A stretch of DNA of 64,000 nucleotides from Gemmatimonadota bacterium (lineage in GTDB: Bacteria > JAAXHH01), in contig VXRC01000045.1 of the NCBI GenBank assembly GCA_009838645.1, positions 1,594 through 65,593 of the forward strand, written 5' to 3'. The notes beneath the pieces were generated by a model. The model saw only the letters and a list, made by a program, of their open reading frames with translations, made no database searches and was not told where the DNA came from. How positions within the stretch are numbered: the stretch's first letter is position 1; every line of letters begins with the position of its first letter. Below, in pieces: positions 33,389-63,362 of this stretch. The position numbers were made by a program, and so were the translations under genes.

Positions 33389-34081
33389 ATGGAATACCTG
33401 TACAATGGATTACAGGAAGCGGTCCGCCTGCTGTTCACGGGCGAATCCGGCGTGTACACCATCGTCGGCGTTTCCGTTTTCGTCGCGGTGTCCGCGATCC
33501 TACTGGCCTCCGTGATGGGACTGCCCGCGGGCTACCTGCTCGCCACCCGCCGGTTCCGGGGCCAGCGCTTCGTGACCACGGTACTCAATACGATGCTGGC
33601 CATGCCGACCGTGGTGATCGGCCTCTTCGTCTACTCCCTGATCTCCCGGCGCGGCCCGCTCGGCTTCATGGAACTGTTGTATACACCGGGCGCCATGATC
33701 ATCGGCGAGACGCTCCTCGCCCTGCCCATCGTGGCCGCCTTCACCCTCTCGGCCTTTCGTGCCGTGGATTCCCGGATCACGGAGACGGCCCTTACGCTGG
33801 GCGCCACGACGGCTCAGACCGCCCGCACCCTCATTTCGGAGGCCCGGTTCGGCATCATGGCGGCGGTGGTGGCCGCCTTCGGGCGGGTCATCGCCGAGGT
33901 GGGCGCGGCCATGATGCTGGGCGGCAACATCAAGGGAAGCACGCGGACCATGACGACGGCGATCGCCCTGGAGAGCAACAAGGGGGAGTTCGGCCTGGCC
34001 ATCGCCCTCGGGATCATCCTGCTGCTTACGGCGTTCGGCGCGAACATTCTCTTTCACTGGCTGCAGGGGTTCGACGACTGA
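33389..34081 (+). CDS. ABC transporter permease of the ModB/TupB-like (small anion) type
   Basis: 230 aa with 5-6 TM segments and a loop ETALTLGATTAQTARTLISEARFG resembling the EAA motif of molybdate/tungstate-type permeases. Confidence 0.55.
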   Translation: MEYLYNGLQEAVRLLFTGESGVYTIVGVSVFVAVSAILLASVMGLPAGYLLATRRFRGQRFVTTVLNTMLAMPTVVIGLFVYSLISRRGPLGFMELLYTPGAMIIGETLLALPIVAAFTLSAFRAVDSRITETALTLGATTAQTARTLISEARFGIMAAVVAAFGRVIAEVGAAMMLGGNIKGSTRTMTTAIALESNKGEFGLAIALGIILLLTAFGANILFHWLQGFDD

Positions 34082-35277
34082 TGGCCGATCCGATGACGGC
34101 CGATCCGATGACGGCCGATTCGAAGACGACAGGTCCGAAGACGACAGGTCCGAAGACGTCCGGTCCGATTATCGTGGGCGAGCACCTGGCGCACCGGCAC
34201 GGTTCCGGGTTTCATCTGCAGATCGAAAACCTCGCCCTGTACGCCGGAAGGACCTATGCCGTCTACGGAGCGAACGGATCGGGCAAGTCCACGCTTTTGA
34301 ACATCCTCGCCTTGCTGACCCTGCCGCAGGAGGGCCGGATCCTCTTCGAAGGCCGGCCCGTGAACGGGGCTGATCCGGGCCGCAGCCGTCAGTACCGCCG
34401 CCGCGTCACGCTGCTCATGCAGCACGTGTACCTGTTCCGGTCCACCGTATTCGAGAACGTGGCGTCCGGCCTGCGGTTCCGCGGCATGGCGAAGGAGGCC
34501 ATCGAAGCACGCGTGACCGGCATGCTGGACAAGGTGGGCCTTCGCCAATTCGCCCACCGGCCCGCCCACAGCCTGTCGGGCGGAGAAGCGCAGCGCGCGG
34601 GACTCGCCCGGGCCCTGGTCACGGACCCCGACGTCCTGCTGCTTGACGAGCCCACGGCCAGCGTGGACGCGACGCACGGGAAACAGATCGAGGCGATTCT
34701 CGCGGAGACGTGCCGCCATCGGCGCATGACCGTCGTGCTGTCGACGCACCAGTACGACCAGGCCTATCGCATCGCCGACGAAGTGCTGATCATGCGCGAC
34801 GGGCGGATGCTCGAGAAGGGACCGGAGAACGTCTTCAAGGGCCACATCGAGGAATCGGCCGACGGCCCGGTCGTAATATTGGACGGCGGTGTGACCCTGC
34901 GATCGGACACGACCGCGCGCGGACCGGCCCACATCGTCATCTCTTCGCAGGAGATCCGGCTGGCGAAGTCGCCGGCGAAGCCACCGCGCACGCCGGACGC
35001 CGAAAATACGCTCACGGGCGTCGTGAATACGCTCATGGGTGTCGTGACCGCCGCCGCGGTGGACGGAGACCGCATACGCCTGGACGTGGACGCCGGTCCG
35101 CGCCCGGACGCGGAGGCTGGCCCGAACTCGGATGCGGCGTCCGGACCGCGCGCGGATGCGCCGTCCGGCCTTCGCCTGACCGTCCACGTGGCGCGGGCGT
35201 CTTTTTCGGACATGGGCATCACTGTCGGGGATACGGTGCATGCCGCCATCGACGCCTCGGCCGTCCGGGCTTCATGA
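34081..35277 (+). CDS. ABC transporter ATP-binding protein with C-terminal TOBE/MOP-like domain; N-terminal tandem peptide repeats
   Basis: Walker A GANGSGKST, signature LSGGEAQR, Walker B LLLDEP. Start overlaps the permease stop (TGATG). The N-terminus ADPMTADPMTADSKTTGPKTTGPKTSGP comes from 15-bp tandem repeats. Confidence 0.7.
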   Translation: MADPMTADPMTADSKTTGPKTTGPKTSGPIIVGEHLAHRHGSGFHLQIENLALYAGRTYAVYGANGSGKSTLLNILALLTLPQEGRILFEGRPVNGADPGRSRQYRRRVTLLMQHVYLFRSTVFENVASGLRFRGMAKEAIEARVTGMLDKVGLRQFAHRPAHSLSGGEAQRAGLARALVTDPDVLLLDEPTASVDATHGKQIEAILAETCRHRRMTVVLSTHQYDQAYRIADEVLIMRDGRMLEKGPENVFKGHIEESADGPVVILDGGVTLRSDTTARGPAHIVISSQEIRLAKSPAKPPRTPDAENTLTGVVNTLMGVVTAAAVDGDRIRLDVDAGPRPDAEAGPNSDAASGPRADAPSGLRLTVHVARASFSDMGITVGDTVHAAIDASAVRAS

Positions 35278-35299
35278 ACGACCAACCACGGAGGAACCA

Positions 35300-36205
35300 A
35301 TGACCACCCGGGAACCATCAAGCCTGGTCATGGGCAAGGACGAGTTGCTGATGGACGGGAAGTACCTGTCCACGCTCCGGGAAGCGAACGAACTGCTGGA
35401 CGACGCGGAAGCACTGCGGGAACGAATGGCCGAGGACGGCTACCTGCTCATCCGCGGCCTTCACGATCCGGATAAGGTCGCCGAAGCCCGCAGGGTCGTG
35501 CTGGAGAATCTCCAGGCCAACGACCAGATCGATCCGGGCTATCCCCTCGACCTGGGAGTGGCTGCGCCGGGCAAGCGGGGCGCCTTCTTCGGCGGCGCCA
35601 AGCGGGTGACGCACACGGACGAGTTCCTCGCCGTGGTCAATTCCCCCGAAATCATGGGGTTCTTCGAGCGGTTCCTGGGCGGCCCCGTCCTCACCTTCGA
35701 CTATAAATGGCTGCGGGCCGTGGGCCCGGGCGACAATACCGGGGCGCATTACGACATGGTCTACATGGGCCGGGGCACCCCGAACCTGTATACCGTGTGG
35801 ACCCCCCTGGACGACGTGTCCTTCGACATGGGCCCCCTGGTCATCCTGGCCGGCTCCCACCAGTTCGAGGCCGTCAAGGAGACCTACGGCCAGATGGACG
35901 TGGACCGTGACCACGTGACGGGCCACTTCACCAACGAGCCCATCGAGATGGTCGACCAGTACGGGGGCCAGTGGCAGACGAGCGAATTCCGGATGGGGGA
36001 CGTGATCGTCCTCGGCATGTACACCATGCACGGCTCCGTCAACAACACGTCGAACCGGTTCCGCATCAGCACCGATACCCGCTACCAGCTGGCCAGCGAG
36101 CCCGTCGACCACCGATGGGTCGGCGAAAACCCCGTCGCCCATTACGCGTGGACCGAAGGGAAGACCGTTTCCATGGAGGAGATGCGGCGGAAGTGGAAGG
36201 TCTAG
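35300..36205 (+). CDS. PhyH-family dioxygenase, paralog 2
   Basis: GGAGGA sits 6 nt upstream of the ATG. HxD in GAHYDMV, ILAGSHQF, and distal His YTMHGSV. Confidence 0.7.
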   Translation: MTTREPSSLVMGKDELLMDGKYLSTLREANELLDDAEALRERMAEDGYLLIRGLHDPDKVAEARRVVLENLQANDQIDPGYPLDLGVAAPGKRGAFFGGAKRVTHTDEFLAVVNSPEIMGFFERFLGGPVLTFDYKWLRAVGPGDNTGAHYDMVYMGRGTPNLYTVWTPLDDVSFDMGPLVILAGSHQFEAVKETYGQMDVDRDHVTGHFTNEPIEMVDQYGGQWQTSEFRMGDVIVLGMYTMHGSVNNTSNRFRISTDTRYQLASEPVDHRWVGENPVAHYAWTEGKTVSMEEMRRKWKV

Positions 36206-36253: not shown

Positions 36254-39200
36254 TTGCACCTTAAACGAACCCTTTTCGGCCCTCTTGCCGGCCTGGTCCT
36301 GCCGCTCGCAATATTCGCGGTCTCCGCGTGCCAGACGTCGGGCGTCCGCGAGCGCGTGGCATACCTGGCCGAACCCATCGGCGACGGCCAGGTGGCCGCC
36401 GTGGTCGACTCGGTGCGGATCCGGCAGACCATCACCGACCTGGTGTCCTTCGGCTCGCGGGTGGCTGGCTACCCGGGCGCCACCGAAGCGGCCCACTACC
36501 TGGTCGGCCGCATGCGGGAGATGGGGCTGGAGGACGTGGAGCTGGAGGAGTTCGTTGCCTCCGTCCCCCATGACGAGGGCGGCGAACTGGCCCTCCTCGA
36601 CGACGCGGCCCTGGAATCCCGGACGATACCCATACACGCCGTGTGGCCCAATCTGGTCCGCACCTCTACGACGCCGCCAGGCGGGATCACCGGTAAGCTA
36701 TACTACGTGGGCAACGGCGAATGGGAGGATTTCAACGACATCGATCCCACCGGCGCCGTCTTCCTGATGGATTTCAATTCCGGCGTCAACTGGCAGCGGG
36801 CCGCCCAGCTCGGCGCCGGCGCCGTGATCTTCGTGGAACCCGACAACACCACGCGGGTGGACGGCGAGGAGAAGTATCTCCAGGTCCCGGTGGACTTCCC
36901 CCGGTTCTGGATGGCGAAGGAACAGGCCCGGCCCCTCGTCGCATACCTTGAAGAAAACGGCCCCCTGACCGTCCGGGCAAAGGGCCGCATGACGTGGAAA
37001 CGCCTTCCCGCTTACAACGTGCTGGGCAAGATCACGGGCACCCACCCGATGCTCAAGGACGAAGTCATCGTACTCGAGTCCTACTACGACTCCATGTCGC
37101 CCGTGCCGGCGGTGTCTCCGGGCGCGAACCAGGCCTCGGGCGCGGCCGCGCTCCTGGAGATCGCCCGGTACTTCGCCGCCCACCCGCCGGCCCGCACCGT
37201 GTATTTCCTGGCGACCTCGGGGCATTTCCTTTCCCTGAGCGGCGTGGACGACTTCACGAACCGCCATACGCGCAAGACGTCCTATTTCGCGGAGAAGCTC
37301 GACGAACCGATCGACATGAAGCTCTTCGCCGGCATCGATCTCTCCAGCGCCCGGGACCAGATCGGGGTCGCCTACGCAGGCATCCTCTTCGCCGGGAACT
37401 CCTTCGAGAAACAAAGGTTCTTCACGCCCTTCGGCCGTACCTTCATGGGGTACGCGGACGAAGTGATCCGGCGCGGCTTTTTCCCAAACGACGCGTTGAT
37501 GAACGTCATCACGCCGTCCCAAGGCATCCTGAGCACGGAGTTCTTCCCCGCGGGCAACATCGCCCTCGACGCGGAACTGGTCTTCTGGACGGGGTTTCCC
37601 GCCCTTACCTTCGCCACCGTGTTCGACGTGCGGGAGTACGTGGACACCCCCCTCGACGAAATCGACCGGGTGAACATCCGCAACGTATACACTCAGACCT
37701 TGCTGCTTTCGGAACTGTTCGGCAGGGCCGTCAACGACGCCATGCTCTTTCCGGATTTCAAGATGCAACTCGAAGACCGGTTCGTGCGGGGCCGCATCCG
37801 GGTGGTCGAATTCGATCCCCGGGAAGACTACATCCCGAGCAAGCCCAAGCCGGGGGCCGTGGTCCGCTTCCGCCGCTACAACAAGACCATCAGCGGGGTG
37901 AAGAACGAGATCTTCGTCGTGGCCGACAGCACCGGCGTGGCCGAGAGCACCGCGCTGGAGGCGGGCCGGACCTACCCGACGGAAGGTTTCGTCATGGACC
38001 CCGAGACGGGGGAAATCATCTACGCGCCGGACCGGGGTCCCTACGGCGAAGGCGCCTACCCGCTCGAGATCACGATGGACTGGGTGGACAAGGAGAAACC
38101 CACGGTGGTCTTCCGGTCCGACGCGACCAACCTCTACGACCTGGTGGACCCCCGGTTCCTGACCCGGCTCAACGAGGCGGTGGTGCTGGACGAATCGGGC
38201 AATCCGCCCCTGGAATGGGGCATGACCTTCCAGGAAGCCGGCTGGACCACGGGTTTCTCCTACGAGGAGGACACGGCCGTCGTCTTCACGCCGCCCGATA
38301 GCCGGTTCAAGGTCACCATGTCCACCGGCCTGTTCGGCCGCCGCCTGATCCTGACCAATGCCGACGAAGCAAACCCGGAGGGGGTCGGCTTCGAGTCGGG
38401 GGTCGGCGCCATCCCGCTGACTTCCTACCAGGTGGCGCGCGACATGTGGCACCTGGACGAGGCGCGGATCGGCGCGCTCAGATCCGTCGGCGTGAACAAC
38501 ACCCGGCTGGACGATTTCCACCGCGAGTCGGGCCGCCTGCTGGACCTGGCCGAAGCGGCCCGGCAGGCCCTGCAGTGGGACCGGTTCATCAAGTACGCCC
38601 GGGCCGCGTGGGGATACGAGTCCAGGGCCTACCCCGACGCGACGGGAACCGCCAACGACGTCGTGGAGGGCGTGCTCTTCTACATGGTACTGGTGATCCC
38701 CTTCGCCTACGCCCTCGAGCGGCTGCTCTTCGGCTTCGCCAATATCTATAAGCGGATCGGCGCCACGGCCGGCATCTTCCTCGCGGCGTACGGGGTGCTG
38801 CGCTTCACCCACCCGGCCTTCCAGATCACCACGGCGCCCGACATCGTCCTCCTCGCCTTCATGACCTTCGTACTCGCCGCCGTGGTCATCTGGCTCATAT
38901 CCCAGCGGTTCAGCCAGACCATGAGGGAGGTCCGGCAGCATGCCCACAGCGTCCAGACCACCGACGTGCGGCGCTCGAGCGCCCTGGGCACGGCCTTCGC
39001 CCTAGGCATCGGCAACATGCGCAAGCGCAAGGCCCGGACGCTTTTGACCTGCGCCACGCTGGTCCTGCTGGTCTTCACCGTGCTTTCCTTCACTTCCGTG
39101 CAGACCTTTCTCCGGATCCAGAAGGTGAGCACCGACACGGAGGCCGCCTACACGGGTTTCCTCGTACGGAACCCCAACTGGGCGCCGCTCCAGAAGCAGA

Positions 39201-40930
39201 CGCACCAGTACGTGCGTTCCGAGTTCGGGTCGACCGAGGCCGAGGACCGGGGCATCACCATCGTGCCGAGGTCCTGGTACGCCGGCGCTTCGCCCGGGGT
39301 GAAAACCTACATCAAGGCGGAGCATGCCGGGGCCAATGGGGCCATCCATTCCACCTACGCCTCGGGCATCCTGGGCGTGATGCCGGACGAACGGATAGTC
39401 AGCGGGCTGGACCGGGCCCTGATATCGGGCCGGTGGTTCGAAGGCGACGAGCGCGACGTGTGCATCATTCCCACCGAAATGGCGCGGCTGCTGGGGATGG
39501 CGGAAGGGGCCGACGGCCCGGCAACGACGGACGGTAACGGCGGCCCGGTGAGGGCTGAAGGGTCCGGCGGCCCGCGGGAGATCCGCATTTTCGGCAAGCC
39601 CTTTACGGTCATCGGCATATTCGATTCAGCCGTGATGGACCAGATCACCGACCTGGACGGCGAACCGCTCACTCCCGTCGACTACACGGCGACCGGACGC
39701 GATCTGCTCACGGAAATCGCCCTGATGGACTACGAGGAAGAACCGGTGGAGATGGTCCGGTTCGAACACCTCCCCGCGGCGAACCTGATCCTCGCGCCGC
39801 AGGCCTATGTGAACGACCTGGGCGGAACCCTGAGGTCCGTGGCGGTCCGGTTCCCGACGGAGGATGCGGCCGAAGCCCGCCTTGACCGCTTCATGCAGCG
39901 CCTGGGGATCCCCGTGGTGGCCTCAGTCGGCGGCGAGGTCGCGGTGCACAGCGCCATGTCGCTGAGTTCCCTGTCCGGCCTGGGCAACCTGTTCATCCCC
40001 ATGGTCGTCGCCGCCCTCATCATCCTGAACACCATGATGAACGCCGTCTACGAGCGCTTCAGCGAGATCGGGGTATACAGCGCCGTGGGCCTGGCGCCGG
40101 CCCATATCGGCGCGCTCTTCATGGCCGAGGCGGCCATGTACGCCGTCATAGGGGGCATGTCCGGCTACCTCATCGGCCAGACCGTGGCCCTGGGCATCAC
40201 GGAATACCAGTTGCTCGCGGGACTCACGCTGAACTACTCGTCTCTCTCCGCCGTGGCCTCCACGGCCATGGTCATGGCAGTGGTCATGCTGTCGACGATC
40301 TATCCAGCGCGGCAGGCCTCCCAGATGGCCGTCCCGGACGTCAACCGGCAGTGGTCCTTCCCCGATCCCGAGGGAGACGACTGGCGTTTCGAGTTCCCCT
40401 TCACCATCAGCCGGAAGGAGACACTCGGCCTCTGCGCCTACCTGACGCGGTTCTTCGAGTCGTACGGCGAGAGCACCCTGGGCAGCTTCATGACGGACGA
40501 GGTGGCGCTGATTGGGACGAACGGATCTGCTCCGGCAGCAGGGCGATCGGGCGGCCGGACGGCCAGCGCCGGTCCGGGTGAGATGCGGGTGTCCGATGCC
40601 GGTCCGGACACGTCCACCTACGAAATCAGCATGAAGACCTGGCTGGCGCCTTACGACACGGGGGTCAGCCAACGCGTGTCCCTCCACGCGACCCCCGCCG
40701 AGGAAGAACACGATCTGTACGCGGTGTGGGTGCACATCTACCGTCTGAGCGGCGACGTGGATTCATGGCAACGGCTCAACCGGCGTTTCCTGAATGTGCT
40801 GCGCAAGCAGTTCCTGGTATGGCGCACCGTGGACCAGGAGGTCAAGACGGTCTACGCGGACGAGGGGCGAGAGATGATCGCGGCAACGACGGGAGAAGCT
40901 GTCGTGGGAGACGCGGGACAGGTATCATGA
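36254..40930 (+). CDS. Giant fusion protein: lipoprotein signal + PA domain + M28-like (likely non-catalytic) ectodomain + tandem FtsX/MacB-type permease repeats
   Basis: 1558 aa. N-terminal lipobox LAIFAVSACQ. PA-domain block GKLYYVGNGEWEDF...GAGAVIFVEPDN. M28-like block SYYDSMSPVPAVSPGANQASGAAALLEIARYF, where the usual Asp of GA-ND-SG is Q. Three TM helices at about aa 800-870. A second FtsX repeat follows: TM at TLLTCATLVLLVFTVLSF, a loop of about 330 aa, then NTMMNAVYERFSEIGVYSAVGL...YLIGQ (FtsX signature). Confidence 0.6.
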   Translation: MHLKRTLFGPLAGLVLPLAIFAVSACQTSGVRERVAYLAEPIGDGQVAAVVDSVRIRQTITDLVSFGSRVAGYPGATEAAHYLVGRMREMGLEDVELEEFVASVPHDEGGELALLDDAALESRTIPIHAVWPNLVRTSTTPPGGITGKLYYVGNGEWEDFNDIDPTGAVFLMDFNSGVNWQRAAQLGAGAVIFVEPDNTTRVDGEEKYLQVPVDFPRFWMAKEQARPLVAYLEENGPLTVRAKGRMTWKRLPAYNVLGKITGTHPMLKDEVIVLESYYDSMSPVPAVSPGANQASGAAALLEIARYFAAHPPARTVYFLATSGHFLSLSGVDDFTNRHTRKTSYFAEKLDEPIDMKLFAGIDLSSARDQIGVAYAGILFAGNSFEKQRFFTPFGRTFMGYADEVIRRGFFPNDALMNVITPSQGILSTEFFPAGNIALDAELVFWTGFPALTFATVFDVREYVDTPLDEIDRVNIRNVYTQTLLLSELFGRAVNDAMLFPDFKMQLEDRFVRGRIRVVEFDPREDYIPSKPKPGAVVRFRRYNKTISGVKNEIFVVADSTGVAESTALEAGRTYPTEGFVMDPETGEIIYAPDRGPYGEGAYPLEITMDWVDKEKPTVVFRSDATNLYDLVDPRFLTRLNEAVVLDESGNPPLEWGMTFQEAGWTTGFSYEEDTAVVFTPPDSRFKVTMSTGLFGRRLILTNADEANPEGVGFESGVGAIPLTSYQVARDMWHLDEARIGALRSVGVNNTRLDDFHRESGRLLDLAEAARQALQWDRFIKYARAAWGYESRAYPDATGTANDVVEGVLFYMVLVIPFAYALERLLFGFANIYKRIGATAGIFLAAYGVLRFTHPAFQITTAPDIVLLAFMTFVLAAVVIWLISQRFSQTMREVRQHAHSVQTTDVRRSSALGTAFALGIGNMRKRKARTLLTCATLVLLVFTVLSFTSVQTFLRIQKVSTDTEAAYTGFLVRNPNWAPLQKQTHQYVRSEFGSTEAEDRGITIVPRSWYAGASPGVKTYIKAEHAGANGAIHSTYASGILGVMPDERIVSGLDRALISGRWFEGDERDVCIIPTEMARLLGMAEGADGPATTDGNGGPVRAEGSGGPREIRIFGKPFTVIGIFDSAVMDQITDLDGEPLTPVDYTATGRDLLTEIALMDYEEEPVEMVRFEHLPAANLILAPQAYVNDLGGTLRSVAVRFPTEDAAEARLDRFMQRLGIPVVASVGGEVAVHSAMSLSSLSGLGNLFIPMVVAALIILNTMMNAVYERFSEIGVYSAVGLAPAHIGALFMAEAAMYAVIGGMSGYLIGQTVALGITEYQLLAGLTLNYSSLSAVASTAMVMAVVMLSTIYPARQASQMAVPDVNRQWSFPDPEGDDWRFEFPFTISRKETLGLCAYLTRFFESYGESTLGSFMTDEVALIGTNGSAPAAGRSGGRTASAGPGEMRVSDAGPDTSTYEISMKTWLAPYDTGVSQRVSLHATPAEEEHDLYAVWVHIYRLSGDVDSWQRLNRRFLNVLRKQFLVWRTVDQEVKTVYADEGREMIAATTGEAVVGDAGQVS

Positions 40931-41460
40931 AAGGCGACGGCAACGGAAGCCCCGGTGGTCCTAGTAGTTCCGGAAATCCCGGAGGCACCGGAGGCCCCGC
41001 TGGCCCCGGAGGCCCCTGGCTCAGGACGCTCATGGACCAGAACGTACGGGTCATGACCCCGGGATCCGCCACGGAGGATCGCGTCACGGTCATCGAGGCC
41101 GTCGAACCGCCCCACAGCCCGCCGCCCGTATTCACCCGGCACGCCTTCATCGAGATGTTCCTGGTCGTCAAGGGCGCCTTGACCTTCCAGTTCCTCCACG
41201 AAAGCGCCTTCGTGCTCGAAGCCGGAGAGATGGTAACGGTTCCCGGATGGAAACCCCATTCGTTCTGGAACGACGGTGATGATCCCGCCCGAATCATGCT
41301 GATCTGCACGCCCGCGGGACTGGATCGGTTCTTCGAGGCTTCCGACCGGTTGTTGCGGCGCATTCCCGTCGATACGTCCGATCCTGAGGAGTTGAAAGGG
41401 GAGATGGCCTGCCTGCGGGAAGAGTTTGGGCTGGAACACGTGGCGCCGCCGCCGGGGTGA
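40927..41460 (+). CDS. Cupin-domain protein with Gly-rich N-terminus
   Basis: Start overlaps the stop of the giant gene (ATGA). Cupin-like core VTVPGWKPHSFWNDGDDPARIMLI. Confidence 0.5.
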   Translation: MKGDGNGSPGGPSSSGNPGGTGGPAGPGGPWLRTLMDQNVRVMTPGSATEDRVTVIEAVEPPHSPPPVFTRHAFIEMFLVVKGALTFQFLHESAFVLEAGEMVTVPGWKPHSFWNDGDDPARIMLICTPAGLDRFFEASDRLLRRIPVDTSDPEELKGEMACLREEFGLEHVAPPPG

Positions 41461-43583: not shown

Positions 43584-44765
43584 ATGGCTGGTAGAACTCA
43601 CCTGTCCCGCAGAGACGTGCTGATCAAGGGAGGAATCGCGACAGCCGGCATGACGCTGCTGCCTTCCCACGTGCTGGCCCAGTTGGACCAACTGGCGCGG
43701 GACGAAACGCCTGTAAACTGGATCGACGAATTCGGGCCGCCCCGAAGCCCCGATTTCGTGCTGCTGGACTGGAATGGCCTGGAGTCGTGGATTACACCCG
43801 TGGAACAGTTTTTCTCGGCCAGCCACTATCCTGAACCGACTGTCGACGGTGATACCTACAGTCTCGAAATCACGGGCGCGGTGAGACAGAGGCTCAACCT
43901 GAGCCTGGAGGAGATCAAATCCATGCCGCGCAGGGACCTCGACTTCACCCTCGAATGCTCGGGCAACCGGGGCGTTCCCGTCTTCCGAGGCGGGGTGTAC
44001 AACGCCCGGTGGACCGGCACGCCGCTGGCGCCGATCCTGGAGCGGGCGGGGATGTGGGATAATGGCATGGAGGTGGTTTTCTTCGGGCATGACGAAGGGG
44101 AGGAGGTCATCACGCCCCGCCGCAGCGAGCCGCTGACCATGAAGCAGAACTTCGCCCGTTCGCTCACCATGGCGCAGGCCATGGACCCGGACATCCTGCT
44201 GTGCTACGAGGTGAACGGCCAGACGCTGCCGCCGAAGCACGGCTACCCCCTGCGCCTTATCGTACCCGGCTGGTACGGGATTACCCAGGTGAAGTGGCTG
44301 AAACGCATCGAAGTGCGCACCACCCGGTACATGGGCCGCTTCATCTCGCGGGATTACGTCACGATCCGCGAGGAGACTCACAACGGAGAGACCGTGTGGC
44401 GCCAGGAGTCCGTGGGCAGAGGCCGCATCAACTCCGTCACGGCGCGGGTCACCCGGGTTGGTCCCCTGCACCGGATCTACGGCGCGGTCTGGGGCGAACC
44501 GCTCAGGGCGGTGCAGGTGCGCATCGACGACGGTCCGTGGCAGACGGCGGAGATCATCGAGGGAGAGGACGCCGAGTACGCCTGGAAGTTCTGGCGCCTG
44601 GACTGGGACCGCCCATCTCCCGGCGAGCATACGATCACGTCGCGGGGCGTAACGACGGCCGGCACGGTGCAGCCGGCGCCGGACGACCCCTACCTGGCCG
44701 GCAAGAAGACCTACTGGGAGAGCAACGGACAGGTAACCCGTACGATACGGACCTTCGAAAGCTAG
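43584..44765 (+). CDS. Sulfite-oxidase-family molybdopterin oxidoreductase with Tat signal
   Basis: Tat motif SRRDVLIKGGIATAGMTLL. Moco-binding region CSGNRGVP...WTGTPL, HGYPLRLIVPGWYGITQVKWLKRIEV. C-terminal dimerisation-like domain. Confidence 0.7.
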   Translation: MAGRTHLSRRDVLIKGGIATAGMTLLPSHVLAQLDQLARDETPVNWIDEFGPPRSPDFVLLDWNGLESWITPVEQFFSASHYPEPTVDGDTYSLEITGAVRQRLNLSLEEIKSMPRRDLDFTLECSGNRGVPVFRGGVYNARWTGTPLAPILERAGMWDNGMEVVFFGHDEGEEVITPRRSEPLTMKQNFARSLTMAQAMDPDILLCYEVNGQTLPPKHGYPLRLIVPGWYGITQVKWLKRIEVRTTRYMGRFISRDYVTIREETHNGETVWRQESVGRGRINSVTARVTRVGPLHRIYGAVWGEPLRAVQVRIDDGPWQTAEIIEGEDAEYAWKFWRLDWDRPSPGEHTITSRGVTTAGTVQPAPDDPYLAGKKTYWESNGQVTRTIRTFES

Positions 44766-47105: not shown

Positions 47106-48338
47106 ATGGATCTCAGAGAGCTCGGACAAAGACTGCGTTATGCGCGGGAGTTCAGGGGGCTCAGTCAACAGGCGACAGCGAAAGCCATTGGTGTGACAAG
47201 AACGGCAATTACTCAGATGGAGTCCGGTAACCGGTCAGTTTCGACACTGGAACTGTCAAAACTCGCTGAGTGTTTTAGACGACCGATAAGCTACTTTTTT
47301 CAGGAGACTACCGAGGAAGAAGATATACTAATCTCGCTATACCGAATTGCACCTAATTTGAAAAGCAATCGTGCAATTCGAAATCGAGTTGGTCAGTGCC
47401 TAGACCTCTTTCGAGAAGGCTTGGCCATGAAAAAGATCCTCGGTATAGAATCCCGTGCAGGTCTACCCGTGTATGATATTCAACCCCCTCGAACCAGAGG
47501 CGATGCTATTACCCAGGGCAATAAGGCTGCTACAGAAGAGAGGCGTCGGTTAGGCATAGGTGAGTCTCCGATTCACAATATCACGGAGCTAATTGTGTCG
47601 CAGGGAATCTGGGCTTCCGATGCAAAACTGCCACAAGAGATGTCGGGACTTTTTGTTAATCATAGCTCATTTGGATTGGCGATTGTCGTTAACTCAGATC
47701 ATTCGCGAGGTCGGAAACAGTTTTCCTATGCACATGAATATGCCCATGCACTTATGGACAGGGATGGGAATCTAGCGGTCTCCAGTAGAGAAAACTCGTC
47801 CGAACTGGTGGAAGTACGAGCAAACGCATTTGCCGCGTCTTTTTTAATGCCTGCAGGAGGCGTATACGAAGAACTAAAGGACTTGGATACGGATTTCCCT
47901 TACCAAAGGGTTCATACCGTATACGATGCTGCCCGTGGAGAGCCATTAGAAGGAGTCATACGTACGTCACCAAGTTCGCGTGGCGTGACCTATAAAGACG
48001 TGGCGAAAATAGCACATCGTTTTGGGGTTAGTTATCAGGCAGCACTATATCGAATGAAAAGTCTAAGGATAGTATCTGACCAGGAAATGGACCGTCAGAT
48101 GGCATTAGAAGATCTAGGTAAGGAGTTTCTCAATGAGTTAAGCGATTCCGAAAGTGTAGAAAGAAGGGATTTGAAAAAACCATCTGATCGAGAACTGCGC
48201 TTTGAAGTGGCTGGTCTTGCAATTGAGGCCTTCCGAAGAGATTGTATCTCCCAAGGCCGACTTCTAGAACTAAGTAAGTTGCTAAAAATAGATGGTCAGC
48301 AATTTATCGACTTTGCATTGAAGGCGCGTGGGAATTGA
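47106..48338 (+). CDS. Fusion of XRE-family HTH and ImmA/IrrE (M78) zinc metallopeptidase domains
   Basis: N-terminal HTH LRYAREFRGLSQQATAKAIGVTRTAITQMESGNR. HExxH in FSYAHEYAHALMD. 410 aa. Confidence 0.75.
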   Translation: MDLRELGQRLRYAREFRGLSQQATAKAIGVTRTAITQMESGNRSVSTLELSKLAECFRRPISYFFQETTEEEDILISLYRIAPNLKSNRAIRNRVGQCLDLFREGLAMKKILGIESRAGLPVYDIQPPRTRGDAITQGNKAATEERRRLGIGESPIHNITELIVSQGIWASDAKLPQEMSGLFVNHSSFGLAIVVNSDHSRGRKQFSYAHEYAHALMDRDGNLAVSSRENSSELVEVRANAFAASFLMPAGGVYEELKDLDTDFPYQRVHTVYDAARGEPLEGVIRTSPSSRGVTYKDVAKIAHRFGVSYQAALYRMKSLRIVSDQEMDRQMALEDLGKEFLNELSDSESVERRDLKKPSDRELRFEVAGLAIEAFRRDCISQGRLLELSKLLKIDGQQFIDFALKARGN

Positions 48339-48340
48339 AA

Positions 48341-48862
48341 ATGTGTATGGTGAAAAACAAGCCCAAGATCGTAATGGATTCAACAGTGATAGTCAGTCTA
48401 TTACGTACAGATCGCTTAGCAATATTCAGCCGATTTGCCCACGGTCGTCTGCTGATAACAAACCATGTATTAGTGGAGATAACAAACTGTTTCCCCGATC
48501 AATTGAAGTCATTTGAGTATCTGGTTGATCGCGGGATTTTAAAGCAGATCTCTGTCAGTAACAAGGACGAACTGTTGGTGTTCCGTGATCTATGTAAACT
48601 AAACACGTTGGGTATTGGTGAATGCGCTGCCATTGCGGTTGCTGTAACAGGAAATCGAATCTTGGCGATAGATGGTAGATGTGCCTCAAGTCAAGCCAGA
48701 AGGATGCAACCAGATCTTCGCATTTTAAGCACCAAGAATCTAATGGATACTTTGCTTAAGAATAACGTGATGGATGAAAACAGACTCAAGACAGCATTAA
48801 ATGCACCATTTAATACGAGTTCCGACCGACCCCCAAACACAGGCGTCGTGGAGTCTTCTTAG
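48341..48862 (+). CDS. PIN-like domain protein (resembles DUF3368/COG2405-type PIN nucleases)
   Basis: KIVMDSTVIV (beta1 Asp), VLVEIT, LGIGECAAIAVAV...LAIDGR pattern. ATG lies 3 nt after the stop of the HTH-ImmA gene. An alternative TTG start at 48335 overlaps that stop. Confidence 0.5.
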   Translation: MCMVKNKPKIVMDSTVIVSLLRTDRLAIFSRFAHGRLLITNHVLVEITNCFPDQLKSFEYLVDRGILKQISVSNKDELLVFRDLCKLNTLGIGECAAIAVAVTGNRILAIDGRCASSQARRMQPDLRILSTKNLMDTLLKNNVMDENRLKTALNAPFNTSSDRPPNTGVVESS

Positions 48863-48928
48863 ATTGTCAACTGTTTACCTTTTGAAGTCAGTCTGATTAG
48901 AAACCATTGACTCGGTAGATGACAAATT

Positions 48929-49849
48929 ATGCCCGATAGCAAAAAGTTTTACGTTCTTGCTTTGGATGGTGGCGGTACAAGAGGGGTATATTCCGCGCAA
49001 CTTCTTTCCAAGCTTGAAACGACATTGGGACGTAGTATCAGAGACTGTTTCCATCTTATAGCTGGATCAAGCACCGGTTCAATTGTAGCGGGTGCGGCTG
49101 CAACAGGTATAAAGATGGAAAAAACCGTTGGTTTTTTTGAGAAATCGGCCAAAAGGGTATTCAAGAAACGTTTTTATCGATGTGGATTAACAAAAAGTAA
49201 GTACCGAAATGAGCAACTTAGGGAAGTTATTACAGATTCACTTCCTTCAATAACTCTTGGCGAAATTGAAACACCGCTGATGATAACTGGTTCCGATACG
49301 AGTACCGGCAAAGCGAGGGTATTCAAGTCAAGATACTTAAAGCAACTTGGAGAACCTTACGTAATGGATGGGAACTTGCTATTGAGCAAAGTGATTCTAG
49401 CTTCGTGTTCCGCACCAACATTTTTCGATCCAACAGATATCGATGGTCATCTAGTTGTCGATGGCGGTCTCTGGGCTAACAATCCTTCGATCATATCGCT
49501 TTCCGAAGCTATTTCGAAATTCAACAGGGAGGTAAAAGATGTCAAAATCCTATCCATAGGGACAGGACAGAAAACCGAAAGCATATACGCTAGACAGAAG
49601 CACTGGGGATTACTTACAGGATGGGGTGGGGTCAAACTCGTTACGTATTTCCTTGACCTGCAGTCTCAAGCTTCCAAGAACATGGCCGAGTTAGTCCTTG
49701 GTAACAACTATCTTCGTCTTAACCCATCGATAGGAGACTGGAACCTGGACGATACAGAGCACTTGGAAAACCTACGGTCTCTTGCTGACATGGATTACTC
49801 GTACAATGTAGATGCAATAAAAGCTTTTACAATTCCCGATGGAGGTTAA
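48929..49849 (+). CDS. Patatin-like phospholipase (CapV-like candidate effector)
   Basis: Oxyanion hole LDGGGTRG, nucleophile elbow AGSSTG (GxSxG), and catalytic Asp in VVDGGLWANNP. Confidence 0.85.
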   Translation: MPDSKKFYVLALDGGGTRGVYSAQLLSKLETTLGRSIRDCFHLIAGSSTGSIVAGAAATGIKMEKTVGFFEKSAKRVFKKRFYRCGLTKSKYRNEQLREVITDSLPSITLGEIETPLMITGSDTSTGKARVFKSRYLKQLGEPYVMDGNLLLSKVILASCSAPTFFDPTDIDGHLVVDGGLWANNPSIISLSEAISKFNREVKDVKILSIGTGQKTESIYARQKHWGLLTGWGGVKLVTYFLDLQSQASKNMAELVLGNNYLRLNPSIGDWNLDDTEHLENLRSLADMDYSYNVDAIKAFTIPDGG

Positions 49850-49851
49850 AA

Positions 49852-61379: not shown

Positions 61380-63362
61380 GTGCCGCAACGGGATCGGATG
61401 AACGCCATGTCCTCTGAACCACCCCGGTCAAGGGGCACTGCGGCCATTACCCTGCGGGCCGGGGTCATCGGTCTCGCGCTCTCAGCCGTGGTCGCCTTCT
61501 GGGGACAGTTCTCCGCCGATCACGCCGGATACAACTATTCCACCTACGCCCATCTCCCCGCGGCGCTGCTGATCCCCTTCCTGATCCTGATCCTGGGTCC
61601 CCACGTCCTGCTCAAGCGACTGTCACCCCGGTACGCCCTGACGACGTCCGAACTGATCGTGGTCTTTGCCATGGGCATGATCGGTTCGATGGTGCCCGAC
61701 TGGGGCATGACGAGGTACCTGGTCTCCCTCATCACCGGGCCCTTCTACCATTCGAGCCCCGAGAACCGCTGGGCGGAAACGTTCTTCGACACGCTGCCCG
61801 CGTGGCTCGTGATCAGTGACAAGACCGACGCGGTCAGGGTTTTCTACGAAGGCGCCGCGCCGGGTTACCGGATCCCCTGGATGGCCTGGATCTCGCCCCT
61901 GCTGTGGTGGATGTCGTGTTTCGGCGCCCTGATGTGGACTGGCGCATGCATCGTGGTCATCCTGAGGAAGCAGTGGGTGAGCCACGAACGGCTGCGCTTT
62001 CCCCTGGGGGAGGTGGCGCTCAACCTGATGGGCGTGGGGAAGGACCGGGACGAACCGCCCATGGTCCGCACGACCGCCTTCCGGATCGGCGCCGGCCTGT
62101 CGCTGGCCGTCGTGTGCTGGAACATCGCATCCTACTGGGACATCGTTACGCCCGTCCCAATCATGGGCCCGGACCTGCTGCAAGTAAAGGTCCATCCGTC
62201 GATCCCGGATCTTCCCATCCGGCTGAACGTCTTCGTGCTCTGCTTCGCCTTCTTCATCAATGCCGAGATCCTCCTCAGCCTGTGTTTCTTCCTGCTGTTC
62301 ACCACGCTGCAGCGGGGCGTGCTGAATATGCTCGGGGTCACGGCGGCGACGACCATGTCGCCGACCGGCCTCGTGGGCACCCAGTCCATCGGCGCTCTGA
62401 TCGCCCTGGTGGCGTGGGGACTGTGGATGGCGCGCCGGCACCTGGCCGCCGTGGCCCGGCGGGCGTTCCGCAGGGATCCGTCGGTGGATGACAGCGGGGA
62501 GTTCTTCTCGTACCGGCTGGCGGTCTTCGGCCTGGTCTTCGGCCTGCTCTACCTGCTGGCCTGGCTGTACAGCATCGGCATGTCCCTGCCGGTCAGCCTG
62601 ATCCTCCTGGCGGTCCTCTTCACCATCTATCTCGGCATGGCCCGGATCGTCGCGGAGGCGGGACTTGTCGCCATGGACCTGCCGGTGAACGCCAACAACT
62701 TCACCGCGGGCATCATCGGCGCCGACAACCTGGACCCCTCCACGATCACCGCCCTGGGCATGACGAACGCCTTCGCCCGGAACTGGCGGACCTTCACCAT
62801 GATCGGGCTGTCCCACGCCGCCTACCTGCAGCGCTGGATGGCGCCGGCCACCCGGCATCTCTTCCTCTGGATATGCCTGGCCTTCGGCGTCAGCGTGGTG
62901 ACTTCCCTCTACTATTACATCAGCGCGGGATACGCCGTCGGCGCCGACAATCTCCTTTCCAAGCCGGGCGACCTCGTGCCCTTTTTCTACAACACGATCA
63001 TGACGTGGAACAGCAGCGTAAGCAGCGTATCGGACCTGGAACTGATCTTCTTCGGGAACGGCATCGTCCTGTACATGTTGATGATCCTCGGACGATTCCT
63101 GTTCCTCTGGTGGCCGCTCCATCCCATTGGCCTGGTCGCCGTGGCCGCGGACACTGTGCGATTCATGTTCCTGCCGTTCTTCCTGGCCTGGCTCATCCAG
63201 GTGATCCTGCTGCGTATGGGTGGAGGGGCGCTTTACCGAAGGGCGCAGCCGCTCTTTCTCGGCATCCTGGTGGGGTATGTCCTCGGCATGGCCCTCTCTT
63301 TCCTCGTGGACAGCCTGTGGTTTCCGGCGGCGCCGCACCAGTTCGAGTCGTTCATCAATTAA
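61380..63362 (+). CDS. Large polytopic membrane protein (about 14 TM), unknown function
   Basis: 660 aa, very hydrophobic, no soluble domains. GTG/ATG start ambiguous (61380, 61398 or 61407). Adjacent to a sulfatase. Confidence 0.5.
   Translation: MPQRDRMNAMSSEPPRSRGTAAITLRAGVIGLALSAVVAFWGQFSADHAGYNYSTYAHLPAALLIPFLILILGPHVLLKRLSPRYALTTSELIVVFAMGMIGSMVPDWGMTRYLVSLITGPFYHSSPENRWAETFFDTLPAWLVISDKTDAVRVFYEGAAPGYRIPWMAWISPLLWWMSCFGALMWTGACIVVILRKQWVSHERLRFPLGEVALNLMGVGKDRDEPPMVRTTAFRIGAGLSLAVVCWNIASYWDIVTPVPIMGPDLLQVKVHPSIPDLPIRLNVFVLCFAFFINAEILLSLCFFLLFTTLQRGVLNMLGVTAATTMSPTGLVGTQSIGALIALVAWGLWMARRHLAAVARRAFRRDPSVDDSGEFFSYRLAVFGLVFGLLYLLAWLYSIGMSLPVSLILLAVLFTIYLGMARIVAEAGLVAMDLPVNANNFTAGIIGADNLDPSTITALGMTNAFARNWRTFTMIGLSHAAYLQRWMAPATRHLFLWICLAFGVSVVTSLYYYISAGYAVGADNLLSKPGDLVPFFYNTIMTWNSSVSSVSDLELIFFGNGIVLYMLMILGRFLFLWWPLHPIGLVAVAADTVRFMFLPFFLAWLIQVILLRMGGGALYRRAQPLFLGILVGYVLGMALSFLVDSLWFPAAPHQFESFIN

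What the first reader, a model, noticed from the sequence alone, without database searches (positions are those of the whole stretch)
36254..40930. 1558-aa fusion of a PA + M28-like ectodomain with tandem FtsX/MacB-type permease repeats
The N-terminus is a lipoprotein-type signal. It is followed by a PA domain and an M28-like peptidase fold in which the canonical zinc-bridging Asp of the GA-[ND]-D-SG block is Gln (GANQASG), suggesting a binding rather than hydrolytic role. After about 800 aa come three TM helices. Then a second full FtsX unit follows: TM, an extracytoplasmic loop of about 330 aa, then three TMs with the NAVYERFSEIG...GL signature. So the PA/M28-like module appears to replace the periplasmic loop of the first FtsX repeat. 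No ATPase is adjacent. A Gly-rich cupin gene overlaps the stop codon. I do not know of a characterised homologue with this architecture.
Basis: partly seen in the sequence, partly recalled or inferred. Interest (0 to 1): 0.7.

Follow-up and report, generated by a model that had tools for sequence, protein, structure and literature searches.

The report
Dead-peptidase ectodomain fused to FtsX permease
This is a real 1558-residue envelope protein that joins a catalytically disabled aminopeptidase-like outer domain to a single MacB/FtsX-type membrane module; it belongs to a large, unstudied family that usually sits beside oligopeptide-transporter-like membrane proteins, which suggests an undescribed envelope system.

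Summary
The ORF 36254-40930 (+) is a real, intact gene. More than 300 full-length relatives are colinear with it. At least 595 species genomes carry the family, and its C-terminal domain defines 1,394 clusters at 50% identity.

Confirmed:
- A lipoprotein-type signal.
- Three TM helices after about residue 794.

Not confirmed: the "first FtsX repeat".
- The three-TM bundle shows no profile similarity to FtsX (hhalign probability 0.2%).
- It has no coupling helix.
- The N-terminal segment is a cleavable signal in most relatives.

New findings:
- A conserved cytoplasmic C-terminal alpha/beta domain that is not an ATPase.
- A near-obligate neighbour: in 50 of 74 loci an OPT-superfamily-like polytopic membrane protein (DUF6785, or an ~800-aa family) lies directly adjacent. 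In this window the DUF6785 gene is 20 kb away (61380-63362).
- In 5 of 80 loci the operon also holds a short FtsX and a LolD-type ATPase.

Best reading: an uncharacterised type VII ABC-like mechanotransducer with a pseudo-peptidase receptor fused in cis. It is a new variant of a known kind, and its function is inferred.

The parts
36254..40930 (+). Whole gene, 1558 aa: signal, pseudo-M28/PA ectodomain, beta domain, helical stalk, 3-TM bundle, FtsX unit, C-terminal domain
   Evidence: ORF list; GC3 0.88; full-length homologues
36254..36331 (+). Lipoprotein-type signal peptide with lipobox VSAC (Cys26)
   Evidence: Sequence. Lipobox in 37 of 117 family members; the other clades carry what looks like an SPase-I signal
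36386..37738 (+). M28 aminopeptidase-like domain with an inserted PA (apical) domain, residues ~45-495. Substituted active-site positions: Tyr277, Gln293, Gly323, His324. Invariant: Asp279, Asp362
37766..38368 (+). Beta-rich extracytoplasmic domain, residues ~505-705; fold not identified
   Evidence: AF2 model, pLDDT mostly >90; conserved in the family
38420..38632 (+). Periplasmic helical region, residues ~723-793. Its last helix (775-825) runs on into the membrane
   Evidence: AF2 secondary structure
38633..38944 (+). Three-TM bundle (794-825, 831-852, 862-897); not FtsX-like by sequence
   Evidence: Hydropathy; AF2; hhalign probability 0.1-0.2% against the FtsX region
38972..39091 (+). Amphipathic N-terminal helix and TM1 of the FtsX unit (907-946)
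   Evidence: AF2; conserved AFxLG(I/V)(S/G/A)NM(K/R) motif
39101..39970 (+). MacB-like periplasmic core domain (950-1239), with a lineage-specific Gly-rich insert at ~1080-1107
39980..40327 (+). FtsX TM2, coupling helix (VYERFSEIGVYSAVGLAP), TM3, TM4
40379..40906 (+). Conserved cytoplasmic C-terminal alpha/beta domain (~1376-1551; strand-helix-4 strands-2 helices); not an ATPase
61380..63362 (+). DUF6785+DUF6784 polytopic membrane protein. This is the family-typical partner, unlinked by 20 kb in this genome
   Evidence: Pfam 2.4e-105; 33% identity to the genes that directly flank relatives of the fusion
40927..41460 (+). Cupin_2 gene. A possible ATG overlaps the stop codon (ATGA). A clade-specific neighbour only
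35240..36205 (+). PhyH-family dioxygenase, 48 nt upstream. A clade-specific neighbour only

Best explanation
The gene encodes a member of a large, uncharacterised family of inner-membrane envelope proteins. They are built on one type VII ABC (MacB/FtsX/LolC-type) permease module.

Shown:
- A lipid-anchored or signal-cleaved ectodomain consisting of a PA + M28 aminopeptidase fold. It has lost the di-zinc site and the catalytic glutamate in every member examined, but keeps an invariant His/Asp/Asp/Glu pocket.
- A beta-rich domain and a helical stalk.
- Three extra TM helices.
- A complete FtsX unit: TM1, a MacB-like periplasmic domain, TM2, a coupling helix, TM3 and TM4.
- A conserved cytoplasmic alpha/beta domain.
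- Conserved adjacency to OPT-superfamily-like polytopic membrane proteins.
- In a minority of operons, a short second FtsX plus a LolD-type ATPase.

Inferred:
- As in other type VII systems, the FtsX module acts as a mechanotransducer rather than a trans-membrane pump.
- A LolD/FtsE-type ATPase engages the nearly invariant coupling helix. In this genome it would be encoded elsewhere.
- The resulting movements of the periplasmic domain are passed to the fused pseudo-peptidase. That domain acts as a receptor or clamp for a peptide-like or protein ligand, not as a hydrolase.
- The ligand is handled together with the OPT-like membrane partner (hand-over or gating).

The arrangement parallels FtsEX-EnvC, where a degenerate peptidase-like domain is the effector, but here the effector is fused in cis.
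For: Gene and family:
- The gene is real and the fusion is conserved: more than 300 homologues of 1450-1630 aa.
- At least 595 species genomes carry it, across Gemmatimonadota, Latescibacterota, Omnitrophota, Nitrospirota, Planctomycetota and others.
- The C-terminal domain defines 1,394 clusters at 50% identity.

Folds:

Active site, in 117 sequences:
- The bridging-Asp position is Q, M, S or N, never D.
- The catalytic-Glu position is A, G or S, never E.
- The His97 position is Tyr in 104.
- His324, Asp279 and Asp362 are invariant.

Coupling helix: the V-Y-E-R-x-x-E-I-G...G-L-A-P columns are 99-100% conserved. This matches the role of the major coupling helix described in PMC5985334.

Partners:
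- In 50 of 74 loci a DUF6785-superfamily gene lies within 300 nt on the same strand; 57 of 74 have one within the locus.
- The two partner families are related: hhalign probability 89.9%, E 1.7e-6.
- The ~800-aa family touches Pfam OPT just under its cutoff: 23.5 against 25.8 bits, covering profile positions 134-620 of 623.

ATPase:
- L014, L015, L048, L059 and L086 carry a 216-aa FtsX and a LolD/YbbA/MacB-type ATPase in the same operon.
- Their fusion proteins still carry the C-terminal domain.
Against: - No LolD/FtsE-type ATPase lies within this 64-kb window. Its only ABC ATPase is a TOBE-bearing importer type beside a TupB-like permease.
- 75 of 80 related loci also lack a short FtsX and a LolD/FtsE-type ATPase in the operon. 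ATP dependence is therefore inferred, not shown.
- In the window's own clade neither partner family is adjacent. The clade-specific neighbours (PhyH, cupin) say nothing about function.
- The ligand is unknown.
- The OPT relationship is sub-threshold and seen in only 4 of 31 members.
- The invariant His/Asp/Asp/Glu pocket could still bind one metal, so some catalytic activity cannot be excluded.
- No coordinates or PAE were available, so inter-domain contacts were not examined.
Confidence: 0.5

Rival explanations
1. ATPase-independent scaffold. The FtsX module has lost its motor. The protein is a static or pmf/ligand-gated scaffold that tethers a pseudo-peptidase receptor to OPT-like transporters. 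The conserved C-terminal domain (KA1/START-like) binds membrane lipid or the coupling helix in place of an NBD.
For: - No cognate ATPase gene lies in 75 of 80 related loci, and none lies in this window.
- The C-terminal domain is as conserved as the TM core and is confined to this family.
- Its weak structural neighbours are lipid- or ligand-binding folds.
Against: - Where a dedicated LolD-type ATPase is present, the C-terminal domain is retained. It is therefore not simply an NBD substitute.
- The canonical ER..EIG coupling-helix motif is almost invariant across the family.
Confidence: 0.25
2. One reading: a duplicated FtsX permease (like YbbP, BceB or ADOP) in which the PA/M28 module replaces the periplasmic domain of repeat 1.
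For: - The topology is formally compatible: an N-terminal hydrophobic segment, an ectodomain, then three TMs.
- A long helix (775-825) runs from the ectodomain into the membrane, rather like a MacB stalk helix.
- A weak NCBIfam ADOP hit is confined to the C-terminal unit.
Against: - Pfam and NCBIfam detect a single FtsX stretch.
- hhalign of 795-900 against 1235-1362 gives probability 0.1-0.2%.
- The first cytoplasmic loop is only about 6 residues, with no coupling helix.
- The N-terminal segment is a lipoprotein signal here and looks like a cleavable SPase-I signal in most relatives. In the model it is followed by a low-confidence linker, residues 27-38.
Confidence: 0.07
3. An active membrane-anchored M28 aminopeptidase, as database names suggest, that trims peptides for uptake by the neighbouring OPT-like transporters. 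The FtsX part would be a mere anchor.
For: - His324, Asp279, Asp362 and Glu441 are invariant or nearly so.
- The partners are oligopeptide-transporter-like.
- Sources name relatives 'M28 family peptidase'.
Against: - The general-base Glu is Ala or Gly in all but one of 117 sequences (Ser in that one).
- The bridging Asp is never Asp.
- His97 is Tyr or Phe in 110 of 117.
- Known M28 relatives with such losses (transferrin receptor; GPAA1) are non-proteolytic (established knowledge).
- An anchor role would not explain the conservation of the whole FtsX unit and its coupling helix.
Confidence: 0.1
4. Artefact: a frameshift, a misassembly, or a chance long ORF in GC-rich DNA.
For: None found.
Against: - GC3 is 0.88.
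- Hundreds of colinear full-length homologues come from independent assemblies, including closed chromosomes.
Confidence: 0.01

Closest known systems
FtsEX-EnvC, and FtsEX-PcsB/RipC/CwlO (type VII ABC systems that control extracytoplasmic hydrolases)
   Same: - A four-TM FtsX fold with a periplasmic domain and a coupling helix.
- The extracytoplasmic effector is a peptidase-like module. In EnvC it is a degenerate, non-catalytic one (PMC7668044; established knowledge).
- The logic is mechanotransmission rather than transport (PMC12646458).
   Different: - The effector here is M28/PA-like, not LytM or CHAP.
- It is fused in cis, N-terminal to the permease, through three extra TMs.
- The periplasmic domain is MacB-like.
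- There is an added cytoplasmic C-terminal domain.
- The ATPase gene is usually not linked.
- The partners are OPT-like membrane proteins, not amidases.
MacB, LolCDE, YbbAP-TesA, HrtBA, YtrEF (other type VII ABC transporters)
   Same: - In L059-type operons a short FtsX plus one ATPase gene suggests a LolC/LolE-like heterodimer.
- The theme of a partner that defines the function is shared.
   Different: - No MacA-like adaptor or TolC was seen among the conserved neighbours.
- There is one FtsX unit per chain, unlike YbbP and BceB.
- There is no fused NBD, unlike MacB.
- Seven TMs in total, with a large non-MacB ectodomain.
Non-catalytic M28-fold ectodomains: transferrin receptor 1 and GPAA1 (and nicastrin, by recall)
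   Same: - A PA/M28-type fold with lost metal or catalytic residues, used as a membrane-tethered binding platform.
   Different: - Those proteins are eukaryotic and unrelated in their TM parts.
- None is joined to an ABC-type permease.
PA-domain M28 aminopeptidases (B. subtilis YwaD, Aneurinibacillus AM-1 aminopeptidase, PaAP, GCPII)
   Different: Those enzymes keep the His/Asp/Glu/Asp/His ligands and the Glu base. This family has Tyr/Gln/His at three ligand positions and Ala or Gly at the base.
OPT oligopeptide transporter family (PF03169), as the relative of the partner proteins
   Same: The ~660-800-aa neighbour family aligns to nearly the whole OPT profile just under its cutoff. DUF6785 is related to that neighbour family.
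   Different: - The hits are sub-threshold and appear in only 4 of 31 members.
- No solved relative was found.
- Transport activity and substrate are unknown.

Membership tests
Type VII ABC transporter permeases (MacB/FtsX/LolC superfamily) | Four-TM FtsX fold | tested here: met
   [not shown]
Type VII ABC transporter permeases (MacB/FtsX/LolC superfamily) | Extracytoplasmic domain between TM1 and TM2 containing the Porter subdomain, with or without Sabre | tested here: met
   [not shown]
Type VII ABC transporter permeases (MacB/FtsX/LolC superfamily) | Major coupling helix between TM2 and TM3 | tested here: met
   A short helix at 1269-1277 between TM2 and TM3 in the AF2 model. The ER..EIG motif is 99-100% conserved. 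The role of this helix is taken from PMC5985334.
Type VII ABC transporter permeases (MacB/FtsX/LolC superfamily) | Cognate NBD (LolD/FtsE/MacB-type ATPase), fused or encoded alongside | tested here: not met
   No NBD is present in the protein. The only ABC ATPase in the 64-kb window is an importer type with a TOBE domain beside a TupB-like permease. A LolD-type ATPase lies in the operon in 5 of 80 related loci. An ATPase encoded elsewhere in this genome could not be searched for.
Type VII ABC transporter permeases (MacB/FtsX/LolC superfamily) | Dimeric assembly (homo- or heterodimer of FtsX units) and ATP-driven mechanotransmission | not testable with these tools
   This needs biochemistry or cryo-EM. 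The short FtsX gene in L059-type operons hints at heterodimers.
Peptidase family M28 (co-catalytic zinc aminopeptidases) | M28 alpha/beta fold | tested here: met
   [not shown]
Peptidase family M28 (co-catalytic zinc aminopeptidases) | Five zinc ligands (His, bridging Asp, Glu, Asp, His) and the general-base Glu | tested here: not met
   Alignments to YwaD and AAP give His->Tyr277, Asp->Gln293 and Glu-Glu->Gly323-His324. Family-wide there is never an Asp at 293 and never a Glu at 323. Only the Asp179-equivalent (Asp362) is kept. The last His appears to be replaced; that mapping comes from reading the motif only.
Peptidase family M28 (co-catalytic zinc aminopeptidases) | PA (protease-associated) insert, as in YwaD, PaAP and the GCPII subgroup | tested here: met
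   phmmer alignments run through the PA region of YwaD and 2ek8. 350-401 residues align with PA-containing structures. There is no Pfam PA hit in this protein; PF02225 is recorded for homologue P0117.
Duplicated FtsX permeases (YbbP, BceB, ADOP) | Two FtsX domains in one chain | tested here: not met
   A single FtsX stretch is found. hhalign of the three-TM bundle against the FtsX region gives probability 0.1-0.2%. The ADOP hit scores 17 bits against a cutoff of 622.

The most novel reading that the evidence does not exclude
The family is the core of a previously unrecognised, widespread envelope machine of diderm phyla (Gemmatimonadota, Latescibacterota, Zixibacteria, Omnitrophota and others). 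In it a type VII ABC-like mechanotransducer, carrying its own pseudo-aminopeptidase receptor, is physically coupled to OPT-superfamily transporters. This would be a new way of linking extracytoplasmic ligand capture to a secondary transporter. The unique C-terminal domain might act as a new cytoplasmic input in place of, or in addition to, a dedicated ATPase.
Probability: 0.3. Interest if true: 0.8.

Novelty: new variant of a known kind. Interest (0 to 1): 0.58.

Why it matters
Type VII ABC systems are defined by the partner they drive: EnvC, LolA, MacA-TolC or TesA. Each new partnership has revealed a new envelope function (PMC12646458).

This family has several unusual features:
- The partner is fused in cis and is a dead M28/PA aminopeptidase.
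- The genomic partners are OPT-like polytopic proteins with no known function or structure (DUF6785/DUF6784 and a family with no Pfam model).
- The ATPase is usually unlinked.

The family is large: 1,394 clusters at 50% identity and at least 595 species. Some genomes carry up to three paralogues. It is concentrated in poorly cultivated phyla.

Working out its ligand would assign function to at least three uncharacterised protein families at once. It would also test whether FtsX-type modules can work with secondary transporters or without a dedicated ATPase.

Tried and rejected
- **Tandem-FtsX model.** Rejected by hhalign, by the single Pfam/NCBIfam stretch, and by the signal-peptide analysis.
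- **The upstream ABC ATPase as the missing motor.** Rejected. It carries a TOBE domain and sits beside a TupB-like importer permease. That synteny is confined to close relatives.
- **PhyH and cupin as functional partners.** Rejected as clade-specific synteny, seen only in the loci at 67-83% identity.
- **Rosetta-stone fusions with DUF6785 among very long relatives (2.1-3.1 kaa).** None found. The extra length is N-terminal Ig-like repeat arrays or coiled-coil inserts.
- **A second paralogue after the window's DUF6785 gene.** Not there; a sulfatase-like ORF follows.
- **Pairwise BLAST between the ~800-aa partner and DUF6785.** No similarity. Only the profile-profile comparison shows the relationship.
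- **PDB sequence searches with both partner families.** No hits.
- **Literature.** Nothing for DUF6785, for FtsX + M28, or for Peptidase_M28 + FtsX. The ADOP search was uninformative because the term was too loose.
- **AFDB fold search.** The library was unavailable.
Full report

The window has an uninterrupted ORF at 36254..40930 on the + strand (TTG start, 1558 codons). Its GC at codon positions 1/2/3 is 0.64/0.45/0.88, the same signature as the other real genes of this 64% GC window. A protein search returned more than 300 relatives. The top ones are 80-96% identical over 98-100% of the length (1512-1590 aa). One is named 'M28 family peptidase [Gemmatimonadota bacterium]'. The ORF is therefore not split by a frameshift and is not a chance ORF. 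The organism is a Gemmatimonadota bacterium.

**2. Anatomy**

- **Signal.** Residues 1-26 form a lipoprotein-type signal (KR, hydrophobic core, VSAC).
- **M28 + PA domain.** Residues ~45-495 are an M28 aminopeptidase fold with an inserted PA domain.
  - Pfam Peptidase_M28 scores 7.3e-11.
  - phmmer aligns residues 59-341 to the PA-containing aminopeptidase YwaD, and also to 2ek8.
- **Beta-rich domain.** Residues ~505-705 form a confident beta-rich domain of unidentified fold.
- **Stalk and three-TM bundle.** Helices at 723-800 lead into three TM helices at 794-825, 831-852 and 862-897.
- **FtsX unit.** After a short cytoplasmic linker comes a canonical FtsX unit: an amphipathic helix and TM1 (907-946), a periplasmic domain (950-1239), TM2, a short coupling helix (1269-1277), TM3 and TM4 (to 1358).
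  - Pfam FtsX scores 3.9e-13.
- **Topology.** The layout is self-consistent. The ectodomain is outside, three TMs bring the chain inside, the FtsX unit has the usual N-in/C-in topology, and the basic residues lie on the cytoplasmic loops.

**3. The active site**

Residue-by-residue alignments to YwaD and to the Aeromonas enzyme show three changes:
- AHYDS against SYYDS.
- GANDNGSG against GANQ-ASG.
- FGAEELGLLG against ATSGHFLSLSG.

I counted the same columns in 117 full-length family members:

| Position in M28 enzymes | Residue here | Family-wide |
|---|---|---|
| His97 equivalent | Tyr277 | Tyr 104, Phe 6, His 5, Asn 2 |
| Bridging Asp | Gln293 | Gln 97, Met 11, Ser 5, Asn 4; never Asp |
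| General-base Glu | Gly323 | Ala 67, Gly 49, Ser 1; never Glu |
| Glu ligand | His324 | invariant His |

Asp279 and Asp362 are invariant, and Glu441 is present in 110 of 117. The surviving invariant His/Asp/Asp/Glu set points to a conserved pocket, for a ligand or perhaps for a single metal. That last point is inference.

**4. Is there a first FtsX repeat? No.**

- Pfam and NCBIfam find one FtsX stretch only.
- A profile-profile comparison of the family sub-alignments for 795-900 and 1235-1362 gives probability 0.1-0.2%.
- The first cytoplasmic loop of the three-TM bundle is about 6 residues. The major coupling helix that characterises FtsX TM2-TM3 (PMC5985334) therefore cannot be there.
- The N-terminal hydrophobic segment that would have to serve as 'TM1' is a lipobox signal in this clade (37 of 117 sequences). 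In the Latescibacterota-type clades it looks like an ordinary signal with an A-x-A|EVDF cleavage site. In the model it is followed by a low-confidence linker.

The protein has one FtsX unit preceded by an unrelated three-TM bundle.

**5. Distribution**

They include Gemmatimonadota, Latescibacterota, Omnitrophota, Nitrospirota, Planctomycetota and Ratteibacteria. Zixibacteria and Armatimonadota appear in the protein search.
- Some chromosomes hold two or three paralogues (OZ241838.1, OZ244937.1).
- The C-terminal domain alone finds 1,394 cluster representatives (50% identity) at E<=1e-3. It is always at the C-terminus of long proteins of 1450-3050 aa.
- The longest relatives add N-terminal Ig-like repeat arrays or coiled-coil inserts, not partner fusions.
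- The whole length is conserved, including the three-TM bundle, the coupling helix and the C-terminal domain.

**6. Genomic context**

I used six loci found by exact-protein look-up and 80 loci from the genome scan. I ran tblastn with candidate neighbours and clustered all ORFs against each other.

- **Two polytopic membrane-protein families dominate.**
  - A ~660-810-aa family with no Pfam model lies immediately downstream (49 loci, median gap 21 nt).
  - A ~650-aa DUF6785+DUF6784 family is usually immediately upstream (36 loci).
  - Of 74 loci with a complete fusion ORF, 50 have one of them within 300 nt on the same strand and 57 have one within the locus.
  - Of the 17 without either, 8 belong to the window's own clade and 3 are short contigs.
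- **The two families are related to each other.** They show no pairwise similarity, but hhalign of the family alignments gives probability 89.9%, E 1.7e-6, over 383 columns.
- **A link to OPT transporters.** Members of the first family match Pfam OPT just below its cutoff. L014 scores 23.5 against 25.8 bits (E 2.7e-5), covering profile positions 134-620 of 623. L068 has E 4.9e-5. Four of 31 members match.
- **No solved relatives** were found for either family.
- **Other recurrent downstream genes** are a ~330-aa protein (27 loci), a PqqD-like protein (29 loci) and a PAP2-like membrane protein (23 loci).
- **A minority with an ATPase.** In five loci (L014, L015, L048, L059, L086) the operon runs: fusion, OPT-like protein, PqqD-like protein, a 216-aa FtsX with almost no ectodomain, then a 243-aa ATPase. 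The ATPase's best NCBIfam matches are LolD, YbbA, DarD, DevA, MacB and FtsE. The fusion protein in L059 keeps the C-terminal domain (52% identity from TM2 to the end).

**7. The window itself**

- The gene sits between a PhyH-family dioxygenase (35240-36205, 48 nt upstream) and a cupin.
- For the cupin, an in-frame ATG at 40927 overlaps the TGA stop (ATGA). The Gly-rich N-terminus is not conserved, and the homologue in L004 is called 112 nt further on.
- This PhyH/cupin context, together with the upstream pair, is shared only by close relatives at 67-83% identity. It is therefore synteny, not independent evidence.
- The upstream pair is a TupB-like permease (33389-34081; NCBIfam TupB 1.2e-62) and an ABC ATPase with a TOBE domain (to 35277; best NCBIfam match WtpC, well below that model's cutoff). 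That is an oxyanion importer, not a type VII motor.
- No LolD-type ATPase and no short FtsX occur in the 64 kb.
- The window does contain the family-typical partner, 20 kb downstream: a DUF6785+DUF6784 protein at 61380-63362 (Pfam 2.4e-105; 33% identical to the genes that flank distant relatives). It is itself preceded by a PhyH-like gene.

**8. How it most likely works**

- *Shown:* the domain anatomy, the loss of the catalytic residues, the type VII fold with an intact and nearly invariant coupling helix, the partner association, and the occasional cognate ATPase.
- *From established knowledge:* type VII ABC systems use ATP-driven movements of the stalk and periplasmic domain to do work outside the membrane. 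Their function is set by a partner protein (PMC12646458; PMC5985334).
- *Inference:* this family is such a mechanotransducer, with the extracytoplasmic partner fused in cis. The dead PA/M28 module would act as a receptor or clamp for a peptide-like ligand. The ligand would be handled together with the OPT-like membrane protein. The motor would be a LolD-type ATPase, encoded in the operon in a few lineages and elsewhere in most, including here.
- I put this at about 0.5.
- *Main rival (0.25):* most members have dispensed with the ATPase, and the family-specific C-terminal domain provides another kind of input. The coexistence of that domain with a dedicated ATPase in L059-type operons argues against a simple replacement.
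- *Less likely:* an active aminopeptidase (0.1) and the tandem-FtsX model (0.07).

**9. Comparison and novelty**

- The protein passes the structural tests for the type VII permease superfamily: fold, periplasmic domain and coupling helix.
- It fails the 'cognate NBD alongside' test locally.
- It has the M28 fold and PA insert but fails the defining metal-ligand test, so it should not be filed as a peptidase.
- It is not a duplicated FtsX permease.
- The closest functional analogy is FtsEX-EnvC, where a degenerate peptidase-like domain is the effector. The closest analogies for the ectodomain are the transferrin receptor and GPAA1.
- No paper in the searchable library mentions DUF6785 or combines FtsX with M28.
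- The sequences are already in databases under generic automated names. The architecture, the partners and the function are undescribed.
- I rate it a new variant of a known kind, with interest 0.58: a large, conserved, uncharacterised system, but with function inferred only.

Noticed in passing
window 47106-51471: Low-GC island (GC 0.43-0.47 against ~0.64). It encodes an HTH+Peptidase_M78 protein, a 175-aa ORF, a patatin-like phospholipase, and a SMODS/DncV-like nucleotidyltransferase with a SEC-C motif. This looks like a CBASS-type anti-phage island, probably acquired horizontally.
   Followed up: partly
window 35240-36205, 51515-52312, 57908-58657, 60546-61373: Four PhyH-family (2OG/Fe dioxygenase) paralogues lie within 64 kb. 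One sits directly upstream of the M28-FtsX gene and another directly upstream of the DUF6785 gene. Whether this pairing means anything is unknown.
   Followed up: no
window 61380-63362 (+): DUF6785+DUF6784 polytopic membrane protein (Pfam 2.4e-105). In other phyla this family directly flanks relatives of the fusion gene. It is distantly related to a second partner family that has no Pfam model and, through that family, to OPT transporters. A sulfatase-like ORF follows it.
   Followed up: yes
L059 12158-15962 (also L014, L015, L048, L086): An operon variant: fusion, then a 663-aa OPT-like protein, a PqqD-like protein of 122 aa, a minimal FtsX of 216 aa with a ~35-aa ectodomain, and a LolD-type ATPase of 243 aa. 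The ATPase is 86-96% identical among these loci, while the short FtsX is only 57-58% identical between the most distant of them.
   Followed up: partly
L001 17200-19152 and equivalents in ~25 Latescibacterota-type loci: Conserved downstream genes of unknown role: a ~330-aa soluble protein with no family match, a PqqD-like peptide-chaperone-type protein, and a PAP2-like membrane protein. NusG_II and Hpre_diP_synt_I genes recur upstream.
   Followed up: partly
P0124, P0133, P0134 (2769-3053 aa); P0142, P0157, P0196, P0243 (2075-2451 aa): Giant family members. Some have long N-terminal arrays of Ig-like repeats before the M28 domain. Others have several-hundred-residue coiled-coil or charged inserts inside it. 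The ectodomain is a variable platform on a constant membrane core.
   Followed up: partly
window 39491-39574 and 40550-40640 (residues ~1080-1107 and ~1433-1462): Two Gly/Ala/Pro-rich low-complexity inserts, one in the periplasmic domain and one in the C-terminal domain. They are specific to this lineage, fall as gaps in the family consensus, and have low pLDDT.
   Followed up: no
window 33389-35277 and 43584-44765: A TupB-like permease plus a TOBE-bearing ABC ATPase (a tungstate/molybdate-type importer with no binding-protein gene identified nearby), and a molybdopterin oxidoreductase 8 kb downstream.
   Followed up: partly
OZ241838.1 (L009 and L021); OZ244937.1 (L055, L073, L075): Single chromosomes carry two or three divergent paralogues of the fusion gene, about 45% identical to the window protein. 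In OZ241838.1 a window-type copy without an adjacent partner coexists with a copy that has DUF6785 next to it.
   Followed up: no
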